Positions 14,341 to 31,940 of a stretch of 57,992 bases of DNA are shown here, piece after piece. Positions within the stretch are counted from its first letter, which is position 1. Every line of letters starts with the position of its first letter. The stretch comes from a virus (taxonomy: Duplodnaviria; Caudoviricetes): the IMG/VR virus record IMGVR_UViG_3300031754_000006, positions 1 to 57,992 of that record. One strand, 5' to 3'. Position numbers and translations under genes: made by a program. Under the pieces are notes generated by a model. The model saw only the letters and a program-made list of their open reading frames with translations. It did not search any database and was not told where the DNA came from.

Positions 14341-14793
14341 TTACGCCTGCGCCTGAACGGGCTGCTCGTCGGGCAGGGGCTGGCCGTCCGTGAAGACGGC
14401 ATTGAGCCCGAACCGAGCGACCACCTCAGCCTTATTCGCGCACTTCGTTGCCTCCAGGACAAAATCAGGCACGCGCTTTGCCTCCTGGCTGGCAGTCCAA
14501 ACGCTAACCTTTGCACTCGGACGGCTGCGCTTGCGCGGCGCCTTTGCGGTCGGCTTGGGCTGAGGCGAAAACGGCTTTGCCGTAGCCACGTGACCGTTAC
14601 TCGTGCCGTTGGTACCGTTGCTGGCCGCCTGAGGCGCGGAAGGCACGCCCTTAGTAATCAACTCGTGCAGCTCGGCCCCCAGCTCCTGCCGGAAGCGCTC
14701 CACGATTTCTGCCTGCACTGCCTGCGCCTTGACCACGATCGCCTTGAAATCGGCCACCAGCTCTGCGCGCGTCTTAATCAGCTTGTTCGCCAT
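14341..14793 (-). CDS. basic putative DNA-binding protein
   Basis: ATG 14793 with GGAG RBS; helical N-terminus, Lys/Pro linker, compact C-terminal domain (AKRVPDFVLEAT...KAEVVARFG). Confidence 0.6.
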   Translation of the reverse strand: MANKLIKTRAELVADFKAIVVKAQAVQAEIVERFRQELGAELHELITKGVPSAPQAASNGTNGTSNGHVATAKPFSPQPKPTAKAPRKRSRPSAKVSVWTASQEAKRVPDFVLEATKCANKAEVVARFGLNAVFTDGQPLPDEQPVQAQA

Positions 14794-14859
14794 TCGGGAT
14801 CTCCTTTGTTGGTTGTTAGACCCGAAGGCTATGTATATACCGTCCATTGTATTTGTAAA

Positions 14860-14895
14860 GCCCCTTACACATGTGCAGTACCATATGTAAGGGGC
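14860..14895 (-). terminator. hairpin closing array 2
   Basis: GCCCCTTACA (14860-14869) / TGTAAGGGGC (14886-14895), followed by TTT on minus strand. Confidence 0.65.
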
Positions 14896-15298
14896 GCCTT
14901 GCTTTACTCGCCCTTGCACGTCCGCTCCGGGCCTTGCCTGCCTTGCCCATCCCCGCTTTACCACCCCTGACCTTGCCTGACCTCACCTGACCTTGCCTGC
15001 TGCGTTTAGCCTGTCCCTACCAAGCCAACCCAAGCCGGGCCAAGCCTGCTCTGCTACGCCTGTCCTTGCCCCTCCAGACCTTTCCTTACGCTGCCTGCCT
15101 TGCCTGCACTACCACGCCGATCCATGCCTAGCCGATCCGCGCCTTGCCTGCTCTGCCGTCCCGAGTTTGGCCGTTCCATTCTCGGCTCTGCCTGCATTGC
15201 CAGCCCTGTCCAAGCCTCTCCACTCACAGCCTCGCCTGCTTAGCCCAGCCTATCCGTACCTAACCGATCTCGACTTTGCCTGCCTTGCCCCACTGCTA
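14893..15298 (-). ncRNA. orphan GGN-NN pentamer array (candidate guide-RNA array 2)
   Basis: Delimiters (CCTGC on +) start at 15279, 15235, 15191, 15147, 15103, 15094, 15045, 14996, 14937; spacings 44,44,44,44,9,49,49,59, all 5n+4. Confidence 0.8.
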
Positions 15299-15502
15299 GG
15301 GCTCACGGATCATCTGCATGGTTGTCCACGCTGCCAGTGAGCCTTCTATGTCTTCACGCGTCAGAGCCGGGTAATCCTCTAGGAGGGTTTCTATCGACTC
15401 TCCCTTGCGAAGCCTCCTGGCCACAAACTCCAAATGGATACGGGTCCCCTCAAAGACTGGCTCACCTCCCTGCACCTTCGGATTACATACTATCGCCTTC
15501 AT
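15296..15502 (-). CDS. DUF433-family protein
   Basis: NPKVQGGEPVFEGTRI...GESIETLLEDYPALTREDI. Confidence 0.85.
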   Translation of the reverse strand: MKAIVCNPKVQGGEPVFEGTRIHLEFVARRLRKGESIETLLEDYPALTREDIEGSLAAWTTMQMIREP

Positions 15503-15873
15503 TCGGTGTCTCCCAATTCCTCGATTGTTATCTCAGTGCGAGATGTTCCAGTAAATTTACCTCCTGGCCCATACTGTACGATCCAACGATCGTCTGTCCA
15601 AATAATACCGTTTAAGGCATCTTCCACGATCTTAATTAAGTTACTGAGATCCCCGAAATGTGGATGCCATGTGTCTAAGTCCATCCGATAGAATCTGGCA
15701 GTGAGGCGGAACGGTACGGCTTTGGCTGGCCCTCGGACTCCTGCATTTCTAGCCGCTGCCCTTACCCTGTCCATGAATATAGCAGCGAGGGGGTCTGTAT
15801 AGCTGTGCCTTGGTGCCCGTCGGGCGCGCTTCCATGGAATCGGTACTCCAGGCACAGTAAATGCGATTACCAT
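15499..15873 (-). CDS. rusA: RusA-family Holliday junction resolvase
   Basis: FTVPGVPIP start; DLSNLIKIVEDALNGIIWTDD catalytic motif. Confidence 0.85.
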   Translation of the reverse strand: MVIAFTVPGVPIPWKRARRAPRHSYTDPLAAIFMDRVRAAARNAGVRGPAKAVPFRLTARFYRMDLDTWHPHFGDLSNLIKIVEDALNGIIWTDDRWIVQYGPGGKFTGTSRTEITIEELGDTE

Positions 15874-16034
15874 GCAGAGGACGCCAGAAACAGAGCGGTC
15901 AAGAAGGCGGACAGCACCGACGCCGAGGCATGGACATCATGGTGCGTAAATGGTCCGGTCATGCAACCGATCGCAACCATGGCCAAGAGGAAGAAAAAGG
16001 CAGCGGCTAGAAATGCCCTAGGGTCGAGCATCAT
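15867..16034 (-). CDS. small two-TM membrane protein
   Basis: MMLDPRAFLAAAFFFLLAMVAIG...; below ORF-track cutoff; ATGA overlap. Confidence 0.5.
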   Translation of the reverse strand: MMLDPRAFLAAAFFFLLAMVAIGCMTGPFTHHDVHASASVLSAFLTALFLASSAW

Positions 16035-16276
16035 GGAATAGGCTCCAATGTCTCTGGATCCAGGGCCGGCTTACTGGATGCTTCCTTGATGGCCTCGGCT
16101 GCCCGAGCTTGGCTATCAAAGTCATCCCTGTGTGCCGGGACGGCTGAATGGGATATCGGCTTGCCGTCGGCATTATATGCCGTCTCGTAAAGCGCGTAGG
16201 TCCTAGTAACGAATCCCTCAGCTTTGTCGGCTATCAGATACCACCGGAAATCCCACCGCGTCGCTATCCGCTCCAT
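16031..16276 (-). CDS. hypothetical protein
   Basis: coupled ORF. Confidence 0.55.
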   Translation of the reverse strand: MERIATRWDFRWYLIADKAEGFVTRTYALYETAYNADGKPISHSAVPAHRDDFDSQARAAEAIKEASSKPALDPETLEPIP

Positions 16277-16470
16277 TCGGTTCCTCCTTTACCTCTTCCG
16301 CTTGGTATTATCCGACTACAGTTGGCCTTACATATCCACCATTCCTTACTAAGCCTCCGTGATTCTACCGGACGACCTCCACACTCAGGACAGCGCCCCC
16401 GTAGTACCCTCCAGAGCCTACCAACCCAATTGGTTCCGGGCCCCTTCGGCGAGCTGTTTTTAGCCATCAC
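16264..16470 (-). CDS. small Zn-ribbon protein
   Basis: CPECG...CKANC. Confidence 0.45.
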   Translation of the reverse strand: MMAKNSSPKGPGTNWVGRLWRVLRGRCPECGGRPVESRRLSKEWWICKANCSRIIPSGRGKGGTEWSG

Positions 16471-17408
16471 GCGGTTCCTCCGTTGTAATTCAGCAGCGGC
16501 GCATCACCCAAGATCCTATCACGTGCCATGGTCGCATATTCTGGGTTTAGCTCGATACCTATAAATGAACGGCCATGACGAGCAGCCACCATCCCTACAG
16601 TACCCGTGCCTGCGAAGGGGTCCAATACCATGGAGCCGGGCGCAGATCCTGCTAGGACACAGCGCTCTGCTAAGTCCCAAGGCATGGTAGCGAAGTGGGC
16701 GCCTGCGAATGGCTTAGCCGTTATCGTCCAGACGCTGCGCGCGTTGCGGCTCTCCTTAACCTCTGTGTCGTGCTGAGTGAACCCAAATGCGGTAGCACCA
16801 TAATCCCCCTTAGCTCCATTCTTGGCCGTATCCGGATCCGTTGCATAAACGATCCGGCCTGCATGTAACGATGGCTCCATGATCGCATCCGCGTCATAGA
16901 AGTAGGTTGCTGACTTAGTCAGTAGGAACACATATTCATGGGCCTTAGTTGGGCGGTCGGTGACTGATTCAGGCATCGGATTAGGCTTGTGCCAAATCAC
17001 ATCCGAGCGCAGCCACCATCCATCAGCCTGTAGCGCAAGAGCCACGCGCCAAGGGATACCGATCAAATCCTTTGGTTTGATGCCTTCGCCTTGTTTGGTC
17101 GGCAACCCCACCGCTCTATATGCCGTATCTTGTTTTCCGGCCCCACCACTATTAGCCGCCCCCGCATATGAATCCCCAAGGTTAAGCCAGACCACGCCGT
17201 CGGGGCGCAAGATACGCCGCACCTCACGGAATACTTCTACCATCCTGGCTACGTATTCCCCGGGCGTGGATTCCATTCCGAGCTGATCCGCGTGCCCGTA
17301 ATCCCGTAGCCCCCAGTAGGGCGGGCTCGTCACGCAGCACTGCACGACCTCATCGGGTAGAGTGCGCATCACAGCGAGGCAGTCACCTTCCAGGATTTTC
17401 CAGGTCAC
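16467..17408 (-). CDS. DNA amino-methyltransferase (beta class, SPPY, probably m4C)
   Basis: GDCL, TSPPYW, HFATMP, LDPFAGTGT, IGIELN; GTG start 17408. Confidence 0.92.
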   Translation of the reverse strand: MTWKILEGDCLAVMRTLPDEVVQCCVTSPPYWGLRDYGHADQLGMESTPGEYVARMVEVFREVRRILRPDGVVWLNLGDSYAGAANSGGAGKQDTAYRAVGLPTKQGEGIKPKDLIGIPWRVALALQADGWWLRSDVIWHKPNPMPESVTDRPTKAHEYVFLLTKSATYFYDADAIMEPSLHAGRIVYATDPDTAKNGAKGDYGATAFGFTQHDTEVKESRNARSVWTITAKPFAGAHFATMPWDLAERCVLAGSAPGSMVLDPFAGTGTVGMVAARHGRSFIGIELNPEYATMARDRILGDAPLLNYNGGTA

Positions 17409-17490
17409 GACACCCCTTCTGGAATCGCTCCTAGCGAACGGAAAGGGGTCGCCCTTGCGTTTTCTCCCCTCGGCTGTCCCGGAGTGGCGG

Positions 17491-17658
17491 CTACCACAGC
17501 CACCCCCCTTTTTCACGGGTCTGCACGACCCGACCGAGCACGCCGTAATCGGGGGGCCTTTTCGGGGGCAGCAGTTCCCGGATACGGGCCCGCAGCTTCC
17601 ACGCGGCCAAGCCGGCAGGGAATAGGAATAGCCCGGCAAAGAGCAGGGCCAGGGTCAC
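17491..17658 (-). CDS. small membrane-anchored protein
   Basis: hydrophobic N-terminus; GTGA overlap. Confidence 0.4.
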   Translation of the reverse strand: MTLALLFAGLFLFPAGLAAWKLRARIRELLPPKRPPDYGVLGRVVQTREKGGWLW

Positions 17659-18618: not shown

Positions 18619-20007
18619 CTAGAACAGTGCCAGCTGATTAACATCCCTTTCGGGCTGCTCTAGACTTCCAATGTCTCGGCTGCGGGGCGCGTTCAGGGCC
18701 AAGTCAATGCGCCGCTCAGCGATGGCCGCGTAACCCGCGTCTCTGTCGATCCCGATGAAGTTGAAGCCGCACCGCACCGCTGCGCATCCGGTAGTGCCCG
18801 ATCCGAGGAACGGATCCAGCACCGTGCCTCCGGATGGCGTGACGAGCTTACAGAGCCATTCCATGAGCGCGATGGGCTTGACGGTCGGATGGACGTTGCG
18901 CGCTCCGCCGTTGCGTCCTGCGCCAGCGCGAGGGGAGTTGGATCCAAGCGTGCCCGGGGGCGTGTCGGTATTGATAACCCCAGGCTCGACATCCCAGAGC
19001 CCCGCGTCCCTCTCTCCACGGCTGGGCTTGGCCACGTAACGGAAGACGGGAAAGAATCGGGAGGCACCGCCGGAGTCGCCACCACCTACGCCAGATCTGG
19101 TGCCATATTTGCCGTAGATGCCAGCAGTGGTATCGCTAGGCGCGTTAGCGCTTGGGATGCCGCTCGTCAGCTCCCCGCTCTGCTCGTTCAGTTCCCGCAC
19201 CGGGCAGCCGCGCATGCACTCGCGACCGCACTCCGGATCATGGGTGAAGATGAGGTTAGGGGGCCAGCGGCCGGCGGAAGGATCCCACCCGGGCGGCAGA
19301 CCGCCACCCACGGAACCGCCGACATATGCATCCTTGGAGAATCCTCGTTCCCCGCCCGATCGCCTGGCGAGCGCCGCTAGGTCTTCACCGGGCGCCGTCC
19401 CTACCCTGCACGCCTCAATGTTCAGCCCCCCCGTCCCGTAGGCGAGCACGTTCGCGGCCACCGTCCCGATGAGCGGGCGCCTGGCGAGCACGATCGGCTC
19501 CCGGGCGGGCTTGAGAGCGGTGCCCCATCCGTCGTAGGCGGTAGCCGGGGCGGTAGCCGGGGCGTGCACGGTGGCGCCCAGGATGGAGTTTCCGCCATGC
19601 GTGCACGCCGAGCCACCGGGACAGGTACCTCCACGCTGTGGCCCGATGACCTGCCGCTCGGCTCCGAGCGCATCATCGATCGCCTTCGAGACGTTCAGGC
19701 TCTTGGGGAAGCCCGAGCCGAACACCCAGTCGATCGAGTCCCGGATCTCGAAGCCCGCATCCTCGATGGCGCACGCCATGCGGTGATATGTCCGCGGGCC
19801 GCCGAAAGCCAAGAGATGGCCTCCAGGCTTGAGCACGCGCAAAACCTCCCGCCACATCTCAACCGAATAAGCGATCCCGCTTGCATCCCAACTCTTGCCC
19901 ATGAATCCAAGTTCATAGGGGGGATCAGTTACTACCGAATCAACTGAGGCATCAGGCATCGCCCTCATAGCCGCGATGCAGTCGGATACGATAATCCGAT
20001 GGCTCAC
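18619..20007 (-). CDS. DNA amino-methyltransferase (beta class, DPPY, probably m6A)
   Basis: VTDPPY, GFPKS, GRWPPN, HPTVKP, LDPFLGSGTT. Confidence 0.92.
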   Translation of the reverse strand: MSHRIIVSDCIAAMRAMPDASVDSVVTDPPYELGFMGKSWDASGIAYSVEMWREVLRVLKPGGHLLAFGGPRTYHRMACAIEDAGFEIRDSIDWVFGSGFPKSLNVSKAIDDALGAERQVIGPQRGGTCPGGSACTHGGNSILGATVHAPATAPATAYDGWGTALKPAREPIVLARRPLIGTVAANVLAYGTGGLNIEACRVGTAPGEDLAALARRSGGERGFSKDAYVGGSVGGGLPPGWDPSAGRWPPNLIFTHDPECGRECMRGCPVRELNEQSGELTSGIPSANAPSDTTAGIYGKYGTRSGVGGGDSGGASRFFPVFRYVAKPSRGERDAGLWDVEPGVINTDTPPGTLGSNSPRAGAGRNGGARNVHPTVKPIALMEWLCKLVTPSGGTVLDPFLGSGTTGCAAVRCGFNFIGIDRDAGYAAIAERRIDLALNAPRSRDIGSLEQPERDVNQLALF

Positions 20008-22731: not shown

Positions 22732-22994
22732 AGCTGGAGACCATCCAGGCCATCTGCGAGGTGGCCAACGAAGCCGAGGCCCATGCTGTCCTGGACAGCT
22801 ACTGGAACGACCTCCAGTGCCTCGGGGGCCGTGTGCTGCCCCCTGCCTTTGGCCGCCCTGAGTGGCGAGTGCAAGTCTTCTTCCCGGCCGAGGGCGTGCC
22901 CAAGGAGCTGCCCCTCCCTGCCGGTGTAACCCGCCTCACCATCCCTGCCGCCCTGCGGCGCATCTACGGAATCTTGGAGGTCGTGTGTCCGTGA
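22728..22994 (+). CDS. hypothetical protein
   Basis: ATGA overlap. Confidence 0.55.
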   Translation: MKLETIQAICEVANEAEAHAVLDSYWNDLQCLGGRVLPPAFGRPEWRVQVFFPAEGVPKELPLPAGVTRLTIPAALRRIYGILEVVCP

Positions 22995-23206
22995 GCGAGC
23001 CCAGCAAATTCGATATGTGCGTCTGCGGCTGGACTCGGGTGCAGCACTGCGCCAAGGAGCCCCATCCCTGCTCGCACACGGTCTGTCGCTGTAAGGGATT
23101 CACACTCGCAAAGGGCAGTAATTACGATCTTACCGTCACTGGCGCGGTACGCAATAACCGCGACCTAGAAAATGCATCCTATCACACGCACGGCGGCTAT
23201 CACTAA
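22991..23206 (+). CDS. Cys/His-rich mini-protein, paralogue 1
   Basis: FDMCVCGWTRVQHCAKEPHPCSHTVCRCKGF; GTG 22991. Confidence 0.65.
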   Translation: MSEPSKFDMCVCGWTRVQHCAKEPHPCSHTVCRCKGFTLAKGSNYDLTVTGAVRNNRDLENASYHTHGGYH

Positions 23207-23661: not shown

Positions 23662-24369
23662 ATGGCATTCGCAGCTAAGCAAAAGGTCGAGATTACTCCC
23701 CCCAATCTCCAGCTAGTCAAGTTCCGGATCATCGGCACTAGTCCACTCGTCCAAAACAAGTTCAGCAGCCGCGCCCTGGAGGCCATGGCCGCCGATCAGC
23801 GCCTCGGCTCCGCCGCCGTGAAGCGCAAGAAGCGCGAGCCCAAGGACTTCGACCTGGCCGTCAAGGAGGCCACCCACTACGCCGATGCCGGCTGGTGCGG
23901 CCTCCCGGCCTCGGCCTTCCGCACGGGCCTCATCTCCACTTGCCGCCTCCTGGGTTTTCCGATGACTTTGGCCAAATTATCGGTATTTGTCGTCGCCGAT
24001 GGCTACGAGCGCGACAGATTCGGAGTGACGCCACTCGTCCGGATCACCAAGGGCAAGCCCGAGCGCACTGACTTTGCCGTGCGCAACGCCACGGGCGTAG
24101 CCGATATCCGCCCCCGCCCCATGTGGCCCGAAGGCTGGGAGGCGGTCATCTCCATTCGCTTCGACGCTGATCAGTTCACCGTGCAGGACGTGACCAACCT
24201 GCTATCCCGCATGGGCGAGCAGGTGGGGATCGGCGCGGGGCGGCACGACTCCAAGGACTCGGCCGGCATGGGCTGGGGCTGCTTCCGGATCGCCGATACC
24301 GTGGGCGGGGAGGCGCCTACCAAGAAGACCAGGGCGCCCAAGGAAGCAGTACAGGAGGAGGTTGGCTAA
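23662..24369 (+). CDS. stand-alone Cas7/RAMP-like RNA-binding protein (Vipr-like)
   Basis: N-terminal strand FRIIGTSPL, PASAFRTGL (RAMP P-x-S-x-x-K/R-G-like), C-terminal Gly-rich loop GIGAGR...GMGWGCF; no other cas genes. Confidence 0.75.
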   Translation: MAFAAKQKVEITPPNLQLVKFRIIGTSPLVQNKFSSRALEAMAADQRLGSAAVKRKKREPKDFDLAVKEATHYADAGWCGLPASAFRTGLISTCRLLGFPMTLAKLSVFVVADGYERDRFGVTPLVRITKGKPERTDFAVRNATGVADIRPRPMWPEGWEAVISIRFDADQFTVQDVTNLLSRMGEQVGIGAGRHDSKDSAGMGWGCFRIADTVGGEAPTKKTRAPKEAVQEEVG

Positions 24370-24843
24370 ATGCCAAGCGCAGCAGCCAAGCGGCTCAAGC
24401 GGGCCCGTACCCAGTCCATCCATGATGAGCTGGCCAACCTTTACCGATTGCATGGAGGTCTCAAGCCCGACGTGATCGTTGCCTGGGCTAAGAATAACCC
24501 TGCCAGCATCCTGCATTCTAAGTTTACGTGGGATGACAGTGAGGCTGCCAAGTCTTACCGCCTTTGGCAGGCGCGGCAGATTATCACAGAAGTAGAGGTG
24601 CAATACCCGGACGGCCATATACGGCGTGTGTATGTTTCGCCGATGGAGTCTCGCGGCACCCGAGGATATGCGACCTTGGTTGACGTTTTGTCCGATGAGG
24701 AGCGGCGAATTCAATATCTGCAACAGGCATATTCTGAGCTGGAGCGCACCGCCGCAAAATATCAGGACCTTGTGGAATTTGCTGGAGTCCGCAGGGCGAT
24801 TCGGGCTGCCGGCAGGAAACTGCCGAAGGCCAACAAGGAGTAG
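24370..24843 (+). CDS. accessory protein of the RAMP-array locus
   Basis: LHSKFTWDDSEAAKSYRLWQARQII motif; abuts the RAMP stop, and its own stop begins the array. Confidence 0.7.
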   Translation: MPSAAAKRLKRARTQSIHDELANLYRLHGGLKPDVIVAWAKNNPASILHSKFTWDDSEAAKSYRLWQARQIITEVEVQYPDGHIRRVYVSPMESRGTRGYATLVDVLSDEERRIQYLQQAYSELERTAAKYQDLVEFAGVRRAIRAAGRKLPKANKE

Positions 24844-25680
24844 CAGTAGGGGCAAGGTTGAGCTGCGCAGGCTAGGCGCGGAGAAGTCTGGTGAGGACGA
24901 GTGTGGAGCAGCGCGGTCGGGTTAGGCCAAGCAGGCGAGGAATGGACCGGTAACGAGAGGCAGAGATAAGCATGGCAGGTGGAGCAAGGACGTGTAAAGC
25001 CCGGGGCGGGCTGGCACGGCAGGCTGAACCTGGATAGGGTGGGCGAGGTGTGGTCGAGCCTGGACAAGCAGGCGTAGCATCGTACGGGTCGGCAAGGATA
25101 GGCGAGGCCAAGCAGGCCGGGAGTGGTAAGGCTCGCAAGGGCAGGGCTGCGCTGCGCGCGGAAGAGCAGGCAGAGCTAGGATTTGTACGGCATGGAGAGG
25201 CCCGGAGAAGCAAAGCAGGCAAGGAGCGGTAAGGGTCGGAGCCGTTAGGCAGAGCAGGCTTGGCTCGGGTCGGCTTGGGCAGGGTCGGAGCGGCTGGGCA
25301 ATTCAATGCAGGTTAAGCGTGGTGAAGCAGAGGGAGGCAAGGACTGGAACGGGATGGCTGAGCAATGCAGGCACGGACAGGTGAGGTATGGCACGGCACG
25401 GCACGCTAGGGCAAAGCAGGCACGGACAGGACCGGTAAGGTATGGAGCGGCACGTCGAGGCAAAGCAGGTCGAGCTTGGACCGGGATGGCGCGGTCAGGT
25501 GAAGCGTGGCGGGGCCAGGTCTGGCAGGCGTAGCAAGCAGTAAAGGGCAAGGCCAGGAGTGGACGCGATAGGCCAGGTGCAGCAGGCGCGGATCGGCAAA
25601 GCAGAGTGCGGGTCGGACGAGCACGGCAGGCGCGGATAGGTAAGGAAGAGGTCGGCGAGGGGAAGCACAGCAGGCTAAGG
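24841..25680 (+). ncRNA. GGN-NN pentamer array (candidate guide-RNA array 1)
   Basis: 17 GCAGG(C/T) delimiters from 24867 to 25670; spacings 64,44,44,49,44,54,49,39,54,59,49,49,59,58,44,44 (15/16 are 5n+4). Confidence 0.85.
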
Positions 25681-25683
25681 AAT

Positions 25684-25760
25684 CCGTCAGCGCAATTGTG
25701 CATTGACGGCCAGGGGAGTCCGTAAACGACGATATCGCCCCGTAGCGGACTCCCCGCTTT
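25684..25760 (+). terminator. double hairpin closing array 1
   Basis: CCGTCA/TGACGG (25684-25709) and GGGGAGTCCG/CGGACTCCCC (25713-25755), then GCTTT. Confidence 0.6.
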
Positions 25761-25775
25761 ACCAGGAAGAAACCG

Positions 25776-26048
25776 ATGGCAGATAAAAAGCTTACCCCCT
25801 TCGATATGTGCGAGTGCGGTTGGACGCGCGTCCAGCACTGCGCCAGGGCTCCGCATCGGTGTACGCACCCGGGATGCTATTGCGTGGCGTTCAAGCTCTC
25901 TTCTGAGCCTGAACTTGACCGGCTGGATGAAGCCATCCGCACCACAAAGGCCCTGGCGCGGGCGCGGTTCTTTCCTGGGCTCGGACTGCGCGCAGATAGT
26001 ATCGATTACTTCATCAAGTGCGGTATTGAGCCCCTGGAGGAAAGCTAG
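25776..26048 (+). CDS. Cys/His-rich mini-protein, paralogue 2
   Basis: FDMCECGWTRVQHCARAPHRCTHPGCYCVAF. Confidence 0.7.
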   Translation: MADKKLTPFDMCECGWTRVQHCARAPHRCTHPGCYCVAFKLSSEPELDRLDEAIRTTKALARARFFPGLGLRADSIDYFIKCGIEPLEES

Positions 26049-26050
26049 CC

Positions 26051-26305
26051 ATGGCCGAAAGCCCATTTGATATGTGTCTCTGTGGCTGGAGCAGGATCCA
26101 GCACTGCGCTACCCCTCCGCATCCCTGCACACATGAGCGCTGTTGGTGTAAGGCATTTTGCTTCGCCCCCAATCACCCCCCCAAAGTTTCGGCTATCAAG
26201 GATGAGATGGATATGGCAGGCGCCAGGTTTTTTGACAGGTTTGGGTTGTACAGCGCTCCAGACGCAAAAACGCTGATCGCGCAAGGATTTACGCCTAAAG
26301 ACTAA
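26051..26305 (+). CDS. Cys/His-rich mini-protein, paralogue 3
   Basis: FDMCLCGWSRIQHCATPPHPCTHERCWCKAF. Confidence 0.7.
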   Translation: MAESPFDMCLCGWSRIQHCATPPHPCTHERCWCKAFCFAPNHPPKVSAIKDEMDMAGARFFDRFGLYSAPDAKTLIAQGFTPKD

Positions 26306-26404
26306 TCAACTTGCCGCCCCTTTCCCAGGGGGGTGGCCCGGGTGGCAGGTTAATTCCTCCGGATGACGCCTGCTGCCCGGTTTTACCTACGGAGTAACCG
26401 AACG

Positions 26405-26674
26405 ATGAGCAAAGATCGCAAAGACACCGATGACCCGAGGGCATCCGATCTGTGCGCCGTGTGTCTGGGATCAGCCGACAATAACGGCGCCCCCAGGTGG
26501 CGTCACTGCGCCAAGCCTCCCCATAAGTGCAGCGTTTGTGACGTATGCCCAGGATTCCAGTACGGCGGCCGAGCACAGGCTATCCATCGCGCGCGGTGGG
26601 CCGAACACGTAGAGCATTACGTGGAGAAGGGCCATCCCCGCGAACAGGTCGAGTTGGCCATCAAAGGTGAATAA
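26405..26674 (+). CDS. Cys/His-rich mini-protein, divergent paralogue 4
   Basis: DLCAVC...RHCAKPPHKCSVCDVCPGF; ATG 26405 with GGAG. Confidence 0.6.
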   Translation: MSKDRKDTDDPRASDLCAVCLGSADNNGAPRWRHCAKPPHKCSVCDVCPGFQYGGRAQAIHRARWAEHVEHYVEKGHPREQVELAIKGE

Positions 26675-26870
26675 CATGCGCCTATCTGAGACCAAGCCGG
26701 AAGACGATCCCGGGCTGGCCATGCCAAAGGGGCAGGAGCCCCACAAAACGGACGTTTGTGAGTGTACCGGCTTTAGGGATGAGCACTGCCTAGAAAAACC
26801 ACATCCGTGTCCTTGTGGCTGTAAGGCATTTAGATTTAGATCGAGATGGATAACCTTTGAAGGTGAGTGA
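26667..26870 (+). CDS. Cys/His-rich mini-protein, paralogue 5
   Basis: DVCECTGFRDEHCLEKPHPCPCGCKAF. Confidence 0.6.
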   Translation: MNNMRLSETKPEDDPGLAMPKGQEPHKTDVCECTGFRDEHCLEKPHPCPCGCKAFRFRSRWITFEGE

Positions 26871-31826: not shown

Positions 31827-31901
31827 GACCCATGTAGCTCAACGGTAAAGCCCAGCCCGCCTTCAAGCTGGAGACTGCGGGTTCAAGTCCCGCCGTGGGC
31901 C
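31827..31901 (+). tRNA. aberrant tRNA-like element (10-nt anticodon loop, possibly Glu-TTC derived)
   Basis: acceptor ACCCATG/CGTGGGC, TAGCTCAA.GGTA D-arm, CCAGC/GCTGG stem, GCGGG-TTCAAGT-CCCGC T-arm; no encoded CCA. Confidence 0.6.
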
Positions 31902-31940
31902 CTTCACACGCAACACGCGGCGCATTTAAGGAGGCACCAA

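What the first reader, a model, noticed from the sequence alone, without database searches (positions are those of the whole stretch)
14860..15298. Second, orphan pentamer array ~8.4 kb from the RAMP gene on the opposite strand
Seen: same grammar as array 1, e.g. GCA GGCAA AGTCG AGATC GGTTA GGTAC GGATA GGCTG GGCTA A, with spacings 44,44,44,44,9,49,49,59 (all 5n+4). The NN content differs from array 1, so it is not a recent copy. It follows a DUF433 gene in the leftward operon and ends in a 14-bp hairpin with one G-U pair. Inference: about 8 extra guides supplied in trans, possibly at a different infection stage.
Basis: partly seen in the sequence, partly recalled or inferred. Interest (0 to 1): 0.85.

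Follow-up and report, generated by a model that had tools for sequence, protein, structure and literature searches.

The report
Second distal VIPR guide-RNA array
This is a real second array of five-base-repeat guide RNAs belonging to a recently described phage RNA-guided DNA-silencing system (VIPR), unusual only in lying 8.4 kb from its protein gene on the opposite strand.

Summary
On the minus strand, GCAGG recurs at 15283, 15239, 15195, 15151, 15107, 15098, 15049, 15000 and 14941 (spacings 44,44,44,44,9,49,49,59). Between these marks run YNNGG pentamers, and a 14-bp hairpin with one G-U pair closes the array. GG-to-GG pairs at +5 number 45, against 14.1 +/- 3.4 in shuffles.

The grammar is that of VIPR vrRNAs in a "staggered array", described in a 2026 preprint. 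The 235-aa protein at 23662-24369 is a RAMP:
- A profile hit to the solved SUSP1 Vipr, E 3.1e-4.

In 137 related loci, all 159 detected arrays lie on the vipr strand, at a median gap of 452 nt. Only two are more than 3 kb away and none is on the opposite strand.

Array 2 shares two phage-specific traits with array 1: the leader TAGCAGT(A)GGGGCAAGG, and A at pentamer position 4. It shares no guide content with array 1. The best reading is eight extra guides, co-transcribed with the leftward MTase-RusA-DUF433 operon and loaded in trans.

Expression, binding and targets are unproven, and no convincing target was found. It is a new member of a known kind, with a rare locus layout.

The parts
14897..15283 (-). 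Array 2: nine GCAGG-delimited units. Eight are guide-length (9,9,9,9,10,10,12,9 pentamers) and one is a 2-pentamer mini-unit at 15107-15099. Adjacent units overlap by one G (spacing 5n+4).
   Evidence: In the pentamers counted, position 5 is G in 60 of 62, position 4 is G in 46 of 62 and A in 12 of 62, and position 1 is C or T in 44 of 62.
15284..15298 (-). Leader: the DUF433 stop codon TAG followed by CAGTGGGGCAAG. Array 1 starts the same way (TAG CAGTAGGGGCAAGG at 24841-24858).
   Evidence: The motif is absent from 140 of 140 array leaders in other loci.
14860..14895 (-). Closing 14-bp hairpin with one G-U pair, followed by CUUUAC. Probably a transcript end or stabiliser.
   Evidence: MFE -37.7 kcal/mol for the 96-nt stretch, z -3.43, 0 of 200 shuffles as stable. 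Not flagged by the terminator scan, which needs 5 T.
15296..15502 (-). DUF433 gene immediately upstream. It overlaps the RusA stop by 4 nt, so it is the last gene of the leftward operon.
   Evidence: PF04255, E 1.4e-17. No homologue in 158 other loci.
15499..17639 (-). Tightly packed leftward operon upstream of array 2: DNA methyltransferase (16467-17639), three small ORFs, and RusA (15499-15873).
23662..24369 (+). vipr: the only RAMP gene detected in the genome and the presumed partner of both arrays.
24370..24843 (+). vap-like accessory gene (phrog_15946, no Pfam family).
   Evidence: A homologue lies beside vipr in 33 of 38 related loci.
24844..25760 (+). Array 1: leader, 19 GCAGG-delimited units, then two hairpins ending in GCUUU.

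Best explanation
Array 2 is a genuine 'staggered' vrRNA array of the phage's single VIPR system.

Inferred route:
1. It is transcribed as the 3' end of the leftward early operon (methyltransferases, RusA, DUF433), and the transcript ends at or is stabilised by the 14-bp hairpin.
2. Vipr protomers made from the divergent rightward operon bind in trans, one per YNNGG pentamer. They sequester GG+Y and expose the NN dinucleotides.
3. At each GCAGG junction the register slips by -1. This would end the filament and define eight separate guides of 9-12 pentamers.
4. Each ribonucleoprotein would then bind double-stranded DNA of a competing mobile element by the published NN / one-base-skip code and silence it.

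Shown here: the grammar, its periodicity, the RAMP fold of the partner, the family-wide linkage of this grammar to vipr, and the phage-specific traits shared by the two arrays.

Inferred: transcription, trans loading, processing at the junctions, DNA targeting, and the identity of the targets.
For: 1. Grammar and statistics.
2. It matches published vrRNAs, which are YNNGG repeats of 9-16 units, and 'staggered arrays' with 1-nt overlap (fig. S18 legend).
3. The partner is a RAMP:
   - E 3.1e-4 to the solved SUSP1 Vipr.
   - The thumb Arg and G-loop Arg are conserved (R152 nearly invariant, R194 invariant).
4. The RNA grammar alone recovers vipr. Of 120 IMG/VR loci found with the pattern GCAGGC plus six phased GG, 88 carry a family vipr next to the array on the same strand.
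5. GCAGG spacing is 5n+4 in 725 of 1032 intervals across 177 arrays. Among the loci found by protein rather than by pattern, it is 117 of 167.
6. Both window arrays share a leader seen in 0 of 140 other arrays.
7. Both share an unusual A at pentamer position 4: 12 of 62 in array 2 and 31 of 127 in array 1, against 3% in 613 family units (p 2.8e-7 and 1.4e-19). The two arrays do not differ from each other (p 0.47).
8. Array 2 is as well formed as array 1.
9. It runs in the same direction as its operon and starts 13 nt after a stop codon, as array 1 and the relatives' arrays do.
10. There are no self-targets: the best array-2 score is 14 of 18 NN bases. The preprint reports the same for its systems.
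11. It is neither coding nor a known RNA. Five overlapping ORFs have no Pfam family, and Rfam finds nothing on the arrays.
Against: - No expression or binding data exist.
- No natural target was found for any array-2 guide. Hits in 159 loci (1.57 Mb) match the shuffled-guide null (7 hits at 1 mismatch, against a null mean of 4.65 and maximum of 10).
- The longest guide's exact gapped pattern has 0 hits in IMG/VR. In metagenome contigs it has 5 hits, which are 2 distinct sequences. These are out of wobble phase with mismatched flanks, as chance would give.
- The layout is atypical. All 159 arrays in 137 vipr loci are on the vipr strand at a median gap of 452 nt.
- No orthologous copy of array 2 was found, so conservation of GGY against variation of NN cannot be shown for this array itself.
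- The pentamers are more degenerate than the family norm (G at position 4 in 74%, against 92%).
- Residues aligned to SUSP1 D177 and W178 are A192 and G193 here. RNA recognition may therefore differ in detail, and the 1-nt-skip rule is untested for this clade.
- Staggered arrays are the one architecture the preprint does not report as confirmed by sRNA-seq.
Confidence: 0.75

Rival explanations
1. Array 2 is a relic: a translocated or duplicated piece of a VIPR array that is no longer used, drifting at the end of an operon.
For: It is far from vipr and on the other strand, a layout seen in 0 of 159 arrays elsewhere. No target was found. The close relative that shares RusA and methyltransferase (L002) has no array beside them. 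The pentamers are more degenerate than the family norm.
Against: Its quality equals that of array 1. G at position 5 is 60 of 62 against 122 of 127, and A at position 4 does not differ (p 0.47). All eight scored junctions keep the 5n register (8 of 8 units). Leader and closing hairpin are intact. The unit lengths of 9-12 pentamers lie in the published working range of 9-16.
Confidence: 0.1
2. Array 2 is a decoy or dosage regulator. Its RNA soaks up Vipr, either the phage's own or that of a resident competitor, through the GGY motifs rather than guiding it to DNA.
For: Vipr binds the constant GGY part whatever the NN. The preprint reports satellites that carry their own vrRNAs and vrRNAs aimed at other VIPR systems. 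No target was found for array 2.
Against: The NN content is diverse and unit lengths are guide-like, which a sponge does not need. The array shares this phage's own leader and pentamer idiosyncrasy. Failure to find targets is expected for 14-20 informative bases from an uncultured soil phage.
Confidence: 0.07
3. The region is an unrelated G-rich structural element, for example two-tier G-quadruplexes from GGNNN runs, or a transcription insulator between early and late genes. Its likeness to array 1 would then be incidental.
For: The transcript strand is 44% G. GGNNN x4 could form two-quartet quadruplexes (my inference, not computed). The array sits at the early/late boundary with a strong hairpin.
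Against: The GCAGG punctuation, the 5n+4 stagger and the leader are the specific VIPR-array grammar. That grammar co-occurs with vipr in 88 of 120 pattern-found loci.
Confidence: 0.05
4. The region encodes a protein, for example the 115-aa plus-strand ORF 14993-15340 or the 57-aa minus-strand ORF 15054-15227.
For: Open frames exist.
Against: Period-5 structure with a -1 slip per unit is incompatible with a codon frame. None of five overlapping ORFs has a Pfam family. Similar spurious frames cover array 1.
Confidence: 0.01

Closest known systems
VIPR systems with 'staggered' vrRNA arrays (bioRxiv 10.64898/2026.04.26.720920; I read Results, Discussion, several Methods sections and the figure legends)
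   Same: A single small RAMP (Vipr) plus an accessory gene. Arrays of YNNGG pentamers with conserved GG+Y and variable NN. Adjacent units overlap by 1 nt. The system is phage-encoded and has no CRISPR repeats.
   Different: This array is 8.4 kb from vipr, on the opposite strand, in another operon. The words 'orphan', 'distal' and 'in trans' do not occur in the preprint's main text. Its figures and data tables were not visible to me. I could not assign the type (I-VII). The pentamers here tolerate A at position 4 and purine at position 1 more than the family does.
SUSP1 / P. fulva type II VIPR (same preprint, and the structural preprint 10.64898/2026.04.26.720927, Results sections read; PDB 36pp)
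   Same: One Vipr protomer per pentamer, and a RAMP fold with thumb and G-loop. The equivalents of thumb Arg R138 and G-loop Arg R179 are conserved (R152, R194). vrRNAs lie both upstream and downstream of the genes.
   Different: SUSP1 vrRNAs are about 100 nt, each with a conserved 3' tail and pseudoknot. Here units are 44-59 nt with no tail between them, only the GCAGG junction. Sequence similarity to SUSP1 Vipr is confined to about 53 residues (E 3.1e-4). The D177/W178 positions are A192/G193, and there is an extra conserved SxxSxGMGWGxF segment.
Orphan CRISPR arrays that act in trans with cas genes elsewhere (from general knowledge, not a call)
   Same: A guide array separated from its effector genes and presumed to use them in trans.
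   Different: There are no direct repeats or spacers, no cas genes, and guides are read as gapped NN dinucleotides. This is not a CRISPR array.
Distal arrays in two other vipr loci found here (L027, about 5.2 kb; L170, about 5.0 kb)
   Same: A second GCAGG-punctuated array kilobases from vipr. It lies after early-type genes (methyltransferase and ParB-like in L170) and before a terminase-like or late region.
   Different: Both are on the same strand as vipr. The window's array is the only opposite-strand case among the arrays examined.

Membership tests
VIPR (Vipr + vrRNA) | Sequence relationship to an experimentally characterised Vipr | tested here: met
   The profile of 25 family members hits PDB 36pp_D 'SUSP1 Vipr protein' at E 3.1e-4 over thumb-to-G-loop. 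The match is weak and partial. The R138 and R179 equivalents are conserved; D177 and W178 are not at the aligned positions.
VIPR (Vipr + vrRNA) | RNA locus of at least 4 tandem YNNGG (or related) pentamers | tested here: met
   Array 2 has 8 units of 9-12 pentamers. GG at +5 is 45 against 14.1 +/- 3.4 in shuffles.
VIPR (Vipr + vrRNA) | GGY conserved while NN is hypervariable among related arrays | tested here: inconclusive
   True at family level: in 613 units Y is 86%, G4 92%, G5 89% and NN is near uniform. No guide is shared beyond the null. No orthologous copy of array 2 exists to test this array itself.
VIPR (Vipr + vrRNA) | Minimal vipr + vap operon, not associated with CRISPR repeats | tested here: met
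   A vap-like gene (phrog_15946) is adjacent here and in 33 of 38 relatives. Tandem Repeats Finder shows no CRISPR-like repeat in the window. I ran no dedicated cas-gene search.
VIPR (Vipr + vrRNA) | vrRNAs lie in the intergenic DNA flanking vipr | tested here: not met
   This holds for array 1 but not array 2, which is 8.4 kb away on the other strand. Elsewhere 159 of 159 arrays are on the vipr strand at a median gap of 452 nt. This is a usual layout, not a mechanistic requirement.
VIPR (Vipr + vrRNA) | vrRNA is expressed and co-purifies with Vipr | not testable with these tools
   Needs sRNA-seq or RIP-seq.
VIPR (Vipr + vrRNA) | Natural DNA targets that match NN with a 1-nt skip, mostly in wobble phase | tested here: inconclusive
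   No hits above the shuffled null in the own genome or in 159 loci. Exact-pattern scans gave only chance-level, out-of-phase hits.
Staggered vrRNA array subtype | Adjacent units overlap by 1 nt, so the end of one unit is the start of the next | tested here: met
   All 8 spacings are 5n+4. The family-wide figure is 725 of 1032. Processing at these junctions has not been shown experimentally, here or in the text of the preprint that I read.
CRISPR array | Direct repeats of about 23-55 bp separated by unique spacers, with cas genes | tested here: not met
   The only constant element is the 5-6-nt GCAGG(C). Tandem Repeats Finder finds only short period-5/10/15 fragments in the region.
Known Rfam RNA families (for example CsrB/RsmZ-type protein sponges) | Match to a curated covariance model | tested here: not met
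   The Rfam 15 scan of the whole window at gathering thresholds gave one tRNA and nothing on either array.

The most novel reading that the evidence does not exclude
VIPR phages split their guide repertoire between operons. A second array placed at the end of the early operon, just before the packaging and late genes, recurs in this phage, L027 and L170. This placement could give those guides a different timing or dose from the vipr-linked array. In addition, the -1 register slip at each GCAGG may itself be the punctuation that stops a Vipr filament and exposes the junction to host RNases. Staggered arrays would then need no processing nuclease or ribozyme. The phage-specific shared leader suggests that arrays can seed new loci by intragenomic duplication and then diversify, a route to 'orphan' guide banks analogous to orphan CRISPR arrays.
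Probability: 0.25. Interest if true: 0.55.

Novelty: new member of a known kind. Interest (0 to 1): 0.35.

Why it matters
VIPR was described only in 2026 preprints, from loci in which guides sit beside the vipr gene. A well-formed array 8.4 kb away in a divergent operon has three consequences:
- Guides can probably be supplied in trans from elsewhere in a phage genome.
- Surveys limited to vipr-flanking DNA will undercount guides and therefore targets.
- It offers a natural test case for whether staggered arrays are processed by register slip alone.

It adds no new principle beyond the published system. The practical value is an annotation rule: scan whole genomes for GCAGG-punctuated YNNGG arrays.

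Tried and rejected
**Structure**
- The single-sequence AF2 fold of the RAMP was useless (pLDDT 33.9). I replaced it with an alignment-based model.

**Promoters and terminators**
- The scan around array 2 was at chance level and missed the hairpin.

**Close relatives**
- No near-identical phage was found in INPHARED.
- The nearest named relative of the RAMP is Cyanophage Cy-LDV1 at 55.9% identity. There are also 25 Mycobacterium phage and 2 Gordonia phage records at about 30%.

**Looking for the array-2 neighbourhood elsewhere**
- DUF433, the 150-aa downstream ORF, the HTH ORF and the GNAT ORF have no homologues in the 38 related loci. RusA has one (L002), with no array beside it.
- The 150-aa ORF has no relative in IMG/VR.
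- The exact leader has 0 hits in metagenome contigs.

**Host**
- Only MAG prophages at 48-57% identity were found (Phycisphaerae, Pirellulales, Gemmatimonadota, Cyanobacteria and others), so no host genus could be chosen for a target search.

**Targets**
- Own genome: best hit 16 of 20.
- 39 and then 159 loci: equal to the shuffled null.
- One 15-of-16 hit of array-1 unit 14 lies inside the vipr gene of L064, but with the skip base at codon position 1. I judge it chance.
- Array-1 unit 15 has one exact 20-of-20 hit in IMG/VR (L171:5165-5194). It lies in an 82-aa ORF with a sub-threshold HTH_17 match (E 0.0024). The skip base is again at codon position 1, and I estimate roughly 0.1 chance hits per pattern. 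Inconclusive.
- Array-1 unit 1: 0 hits.
- Array-2 unit 8: 0 hits in IMG/VR. Five hits in metagenome contigs collapse to 2 distinct sequences, out of phase with mismatched flanks.

**Guide sharing**
- Comparison with 613 external units found no sharing beyond the null.

**Arrays with no family vipr in the locus (32 of 120)**
- Two (L094, L089) have a divergent RAMP-like ORF beside the array, with a 'TGTSPLLMHN' N-terminus, that my family model missed.
- Two others (L047, L056) remain candidate orphans.
- A missing model hit is therefore not proof of orphan status.
- One apparent distal array (L011) was a false positive inside a coding region.

**Expression**
- No RNA holder is listed. The only run holding the stretch is a DNA soil-metagenome run that may be the source.

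**Tools and files not available**
- The preprints' supplementary data (tables S2-S3, data S3-S4) and all figures were not visible. They may already list this clade, its type, or distal arrays.

Full report
**The observation.** Read on the minus strand, the region begins 13 nt after the TAG stop of a DUF433 gene (15296-15502; Pfam E 1.4e-17). GCAGG(C) starts at 15283, 15239, 15195, 15151, 15107, 15098, 15049, 15000 and 14941, giving spacings of 44,44,44,44,9,49,49,59. Between these marks the sequence runs in pentamers. In the YNNGG register, position 5 is G in 60 of 62 pentamers. Position 4 is G in 46 and A in 12. Position 1 is C or T in 44.

Each unit is a multiple of five if the G of the next GCAGG is counted as its last base. 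GG..GG pairs five bases apart number 45, against 14.1 +/- 3.4 (maximum 27) in 1000 dinucleotide shuffles. Across both strands of the window, only this region and 24871-25659 (+) show the signal over more than a few bases. The array ends in a 14-bp stem (14860-14895) with one G-U pair.

**What it is.** A literature search on 'pentanucleotide repeat / phage / noncoding RNA' returned a 2026 preprint, bioRxiv 10.64898/2026.04.26.720920. I read its Results, Discussion, several Methods sections and the figure legends. It describes VIPR systems:
- A small phage-encoded RAMP (Vipr), usually with an accessory gene (vap).
- vrRNAs built of 9-16 YNNGG repeats, in which GGY is constant and NN is hypervariable.
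- The NN dinucleotides pair with double-stranded DNA while skipping every third target base.
- Natural targets are competing phages and satellites.
- Among the array architectures are 'staggered arrays' in which adjacent vrRNAs overlap by 1 nt (fig. S18 legend).

A companion structural preprint, 10.64898/2026.04.26.720927 (two Results sections read), shows one Vipr protomer per pentamer. The thumb and G-loop hold the GGY. The window's arrays fit this description, including the 1-nt overlap.

**The partner protein.** The 235-aa ORF at 23662-24369 has no Pfam family and only an unannotated PHROG, phrog_4652.
- With an alignment of 25 homologues, AlphaFold2 gives pLDDT 82.9.
- Foldseek's best PDB matches are Csm3/Cas7 chains (9ash_F, E 6.9e-7; 94 matches at E <= 0.001).
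- The family profile also hits the solved 'SUSP1 Vipr protein' (36pp_D) at E 3.1e-4 across thumb and G-loop. This aligns R152 with the thumb Arg R138, and R194 with the G-loop Arg R179.
- The positions aligned to D177 and W178 are A192 and G193. This clade has an additional conserved SxxSxGMGWGxF segment.

The next gene (24370-24843, phrog_15946) has homologues beside vipr in 33 of 38 related IMG/VR loci. It is therefore the vap-like accessory gene. Array 1 starts directly after its stop codon.

**Linkage of the grammar to vipr.**
- Of 38 IMG/VR loci found through the protein, 32 have period-5 GG arrays, all on the vipr strand. Their units are punctuated by GCAGG exactly as here.
- Searching in the other direction, a pattern containing only RNA grammar (GCAGGC plus six phased GG) hit at least 120 IMG/VR stretches. 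Of these, 88 carry a family vipr next to the array on the same strand.
- At least two of the other 32 carry a divergent RAMP-like ORF that my model missed.
- GCAGG-to-GCAGG spacing is 5n+4 in 725 of 1032 intervals. Among the loci found by protein it is 117 of 167.
- The internal pentamer logo of 613 external units is Y 86%, NN near uniform, G 92%, G 89%.

**Is array 2 part of this phage's system?** The genome is the window itself (57,992 bases, one contig) and has a single vipr. Two features tie array 2 to array 1 rather than to the family in general.
- Both begin TAG-CAGT(A)GGGGCAAGG, a leader found in 0 of 140 other array leaders.
- Both have an unusual A at pentamer position 4: 12 of 62 and 31 of 127, against 3% in the family (binomial p 2.8e-7 and 1.4e-19). 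The two arrays do not differ from each other (p 0.47).

The arrays still share no guide content. The longest identity is 16 nt, at a junction. Array 2 is therefore not a recent copy, and it is as well formed as array 1.

**Context.** Array 2 closes a tightly packed minus-strand operon: a methyltransferase (16467-17639), three small ORFs, RusA (15499-15873) and DUF433, with 4-nt overlaps between several genes. A second methyltransferase (18619-20007) lies further upstream. After the hairpin come a 150-aa ORF, a weakly HTH-like ORF, a GNAT, the large terminase, the portal and the major head protein. vipr, vap and array 1 lie in the divergent plus-strand operon with Gam, HNH, Erf and an ATPase. 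Array 2 is thus co-directional with its own operon and sits at the early/late boundary.

**How unusual the layout is.** In 137 loci with a family vipr, I detected 159 arrays.
- All 159 are on the vipr strand, at a median gap of 452 nt. Of the 137 loci, 31 offered at least 8.8 kb upstream, enough to see an array placed as in the window.
- Three arrays were more than 3 kb away. One (L011) is a false positive in coding sequence.
- L027 (5.2 kb) and L170 (5.0 kb) are real GCAGG arrays. They lie after early-type genes and before a terminase-like or late region.
- Five whole contigs of closer relatives have arrays only beside vipr.

Distal arrays therefore exist but are rare. The opposite-strand case is the only one I saw.

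**Targets.** Using the published NN / 1-nt-skip rule, I found no convincing target.
- No self-target: the best array-2 score is 14 of 18.
- No excess over shuffled guides in 159 loci (1.57 Mb).
- No guides shared with 613 external units.
- Exact-pattern scans gave 0 hits for array-2 unit 8 in IMG/VR. In metagenome contigs it gave 5 hits, which are 2 distinct sequences, out of wobble phase with mismatched flanks.
- One exact 20-of-20 hit for array-1 unit 15 lies in a small HTH-like ORF of L171. It too is out of wobble phase, and by my rough estimate it is near the chance expectation.

With only 14-20 informative bases per guide and an uncultured soil phage of unknown host, this negative result carries little weight either way.

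**Mechanism proposed.** Array 2 is transcribed with the leftward operon, and the transcript ends at or is stabilised by the hairpin. Vipr from the other operon coats each run of pentamers. The -1 slip at each GCAGG breaks the filament register, so eight separate ribonucleoproteins of 9-12 protomers form. The junctions are probably trimmed by host RNases. Each ribonucleoprotein then silences a competitor's DNA by gapped NN pairing. The grammar, the fold, the linkage and the shared idiosyncrasies are shown here. Transcription, trans loading, junction processing and targeting are inferred from the preprints and from anatomy.

**Rivals.** I considered four alternatives:
- a disused relic;
- a decoy that titrates Vipr;
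- an unrelated G-rich structural element;
- a coding region.

The array's integrity, its guide-like unit lengths, the specificity of the grammar and the period-5 structure argue against each in turn. Only experiment can exclude the first two.

**Novelty and verdict.** The element belongs to a system already in print (2026 preprints), in the 'staggered array' architecture. The preprint's main text does not mention orphan, distal or trans-acting arrays within a vipr-bearing phage, though it does report satellites with their own vrRNAs. I could not see its figures or supplementary tables. I rate this a new member of a known kind with a rare locus layout, of moderate to low interest.

Noticed in passing
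window 22993-23206, 25776-26048, 26051-26305, 26363-26674, 26667-26870 (+): Five small paralogous Cys-rich ORFs (motif like FDMCxCGWxRxQHCxxxPHxCxHxxCxC) bracket the vipr-vap-array 1 module, one upstream and four downstream. They could be zinc-ribbon proteins linked to the module or marks of a cassette boundary.
   Followed up: partly
L001:4589-5692 and L003:719-1837: In two of the closest relatives, vipr and the vap-like gene read as one ORF (367 and 372 aa). This is either a natural fusion or a sequencing frameshift.
   Followed up: no
window 31828-31902 (+): A tRNA gene (Rfam 40.7 bits) for which ARAGORN reports an undetermined identity and a two-base anticodon '(tc)'. The anticodon loop is odd.
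   Followed up: no
L094:2333-3016(-), L089:11145-11720(-): GCAGG-type arrays lie next to ORFs with a Vipr-like N-terminus (…TGTSPLLMHN…) that the clade profile does not detect. These are probably a different VIPR type using the same array punctuation.
   Followed up: partly
L047:1908-2823 (contig rated 100% complete, 95,777 bp) and L056:8338-8709: These are long GCAGG-punctuated arrays with no family vipr detected in the whole contig at E <= 0.01. In L056 the array follows a gene set that I judged to be RecT- and exonuclease-like from the first residues only, without a family search. They are candidates for vrRNA arrays without a Vipr gene, or with an unrecognised one.
   Followed up: partly
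L171:5165-5194: The ten inner NN dinucleotides of array-1 unit 15 match exactly (20 of 20) inside an 82-aa HTH-like ORF of an unrelated IMG/VR contig. The skip base falls on codon position 1, not on the wobble position.
   Followed up: yes
window 14793-14859 (-): Directly after the array-2 hairpin lies TTTACA-16 nt-TATACA, followed by a strong AAAGGAGA ribosome site for the 150-aa ORF. By eye this is a possible promoter for the next operon. The scan tool did not flag it.
   Followed up: no
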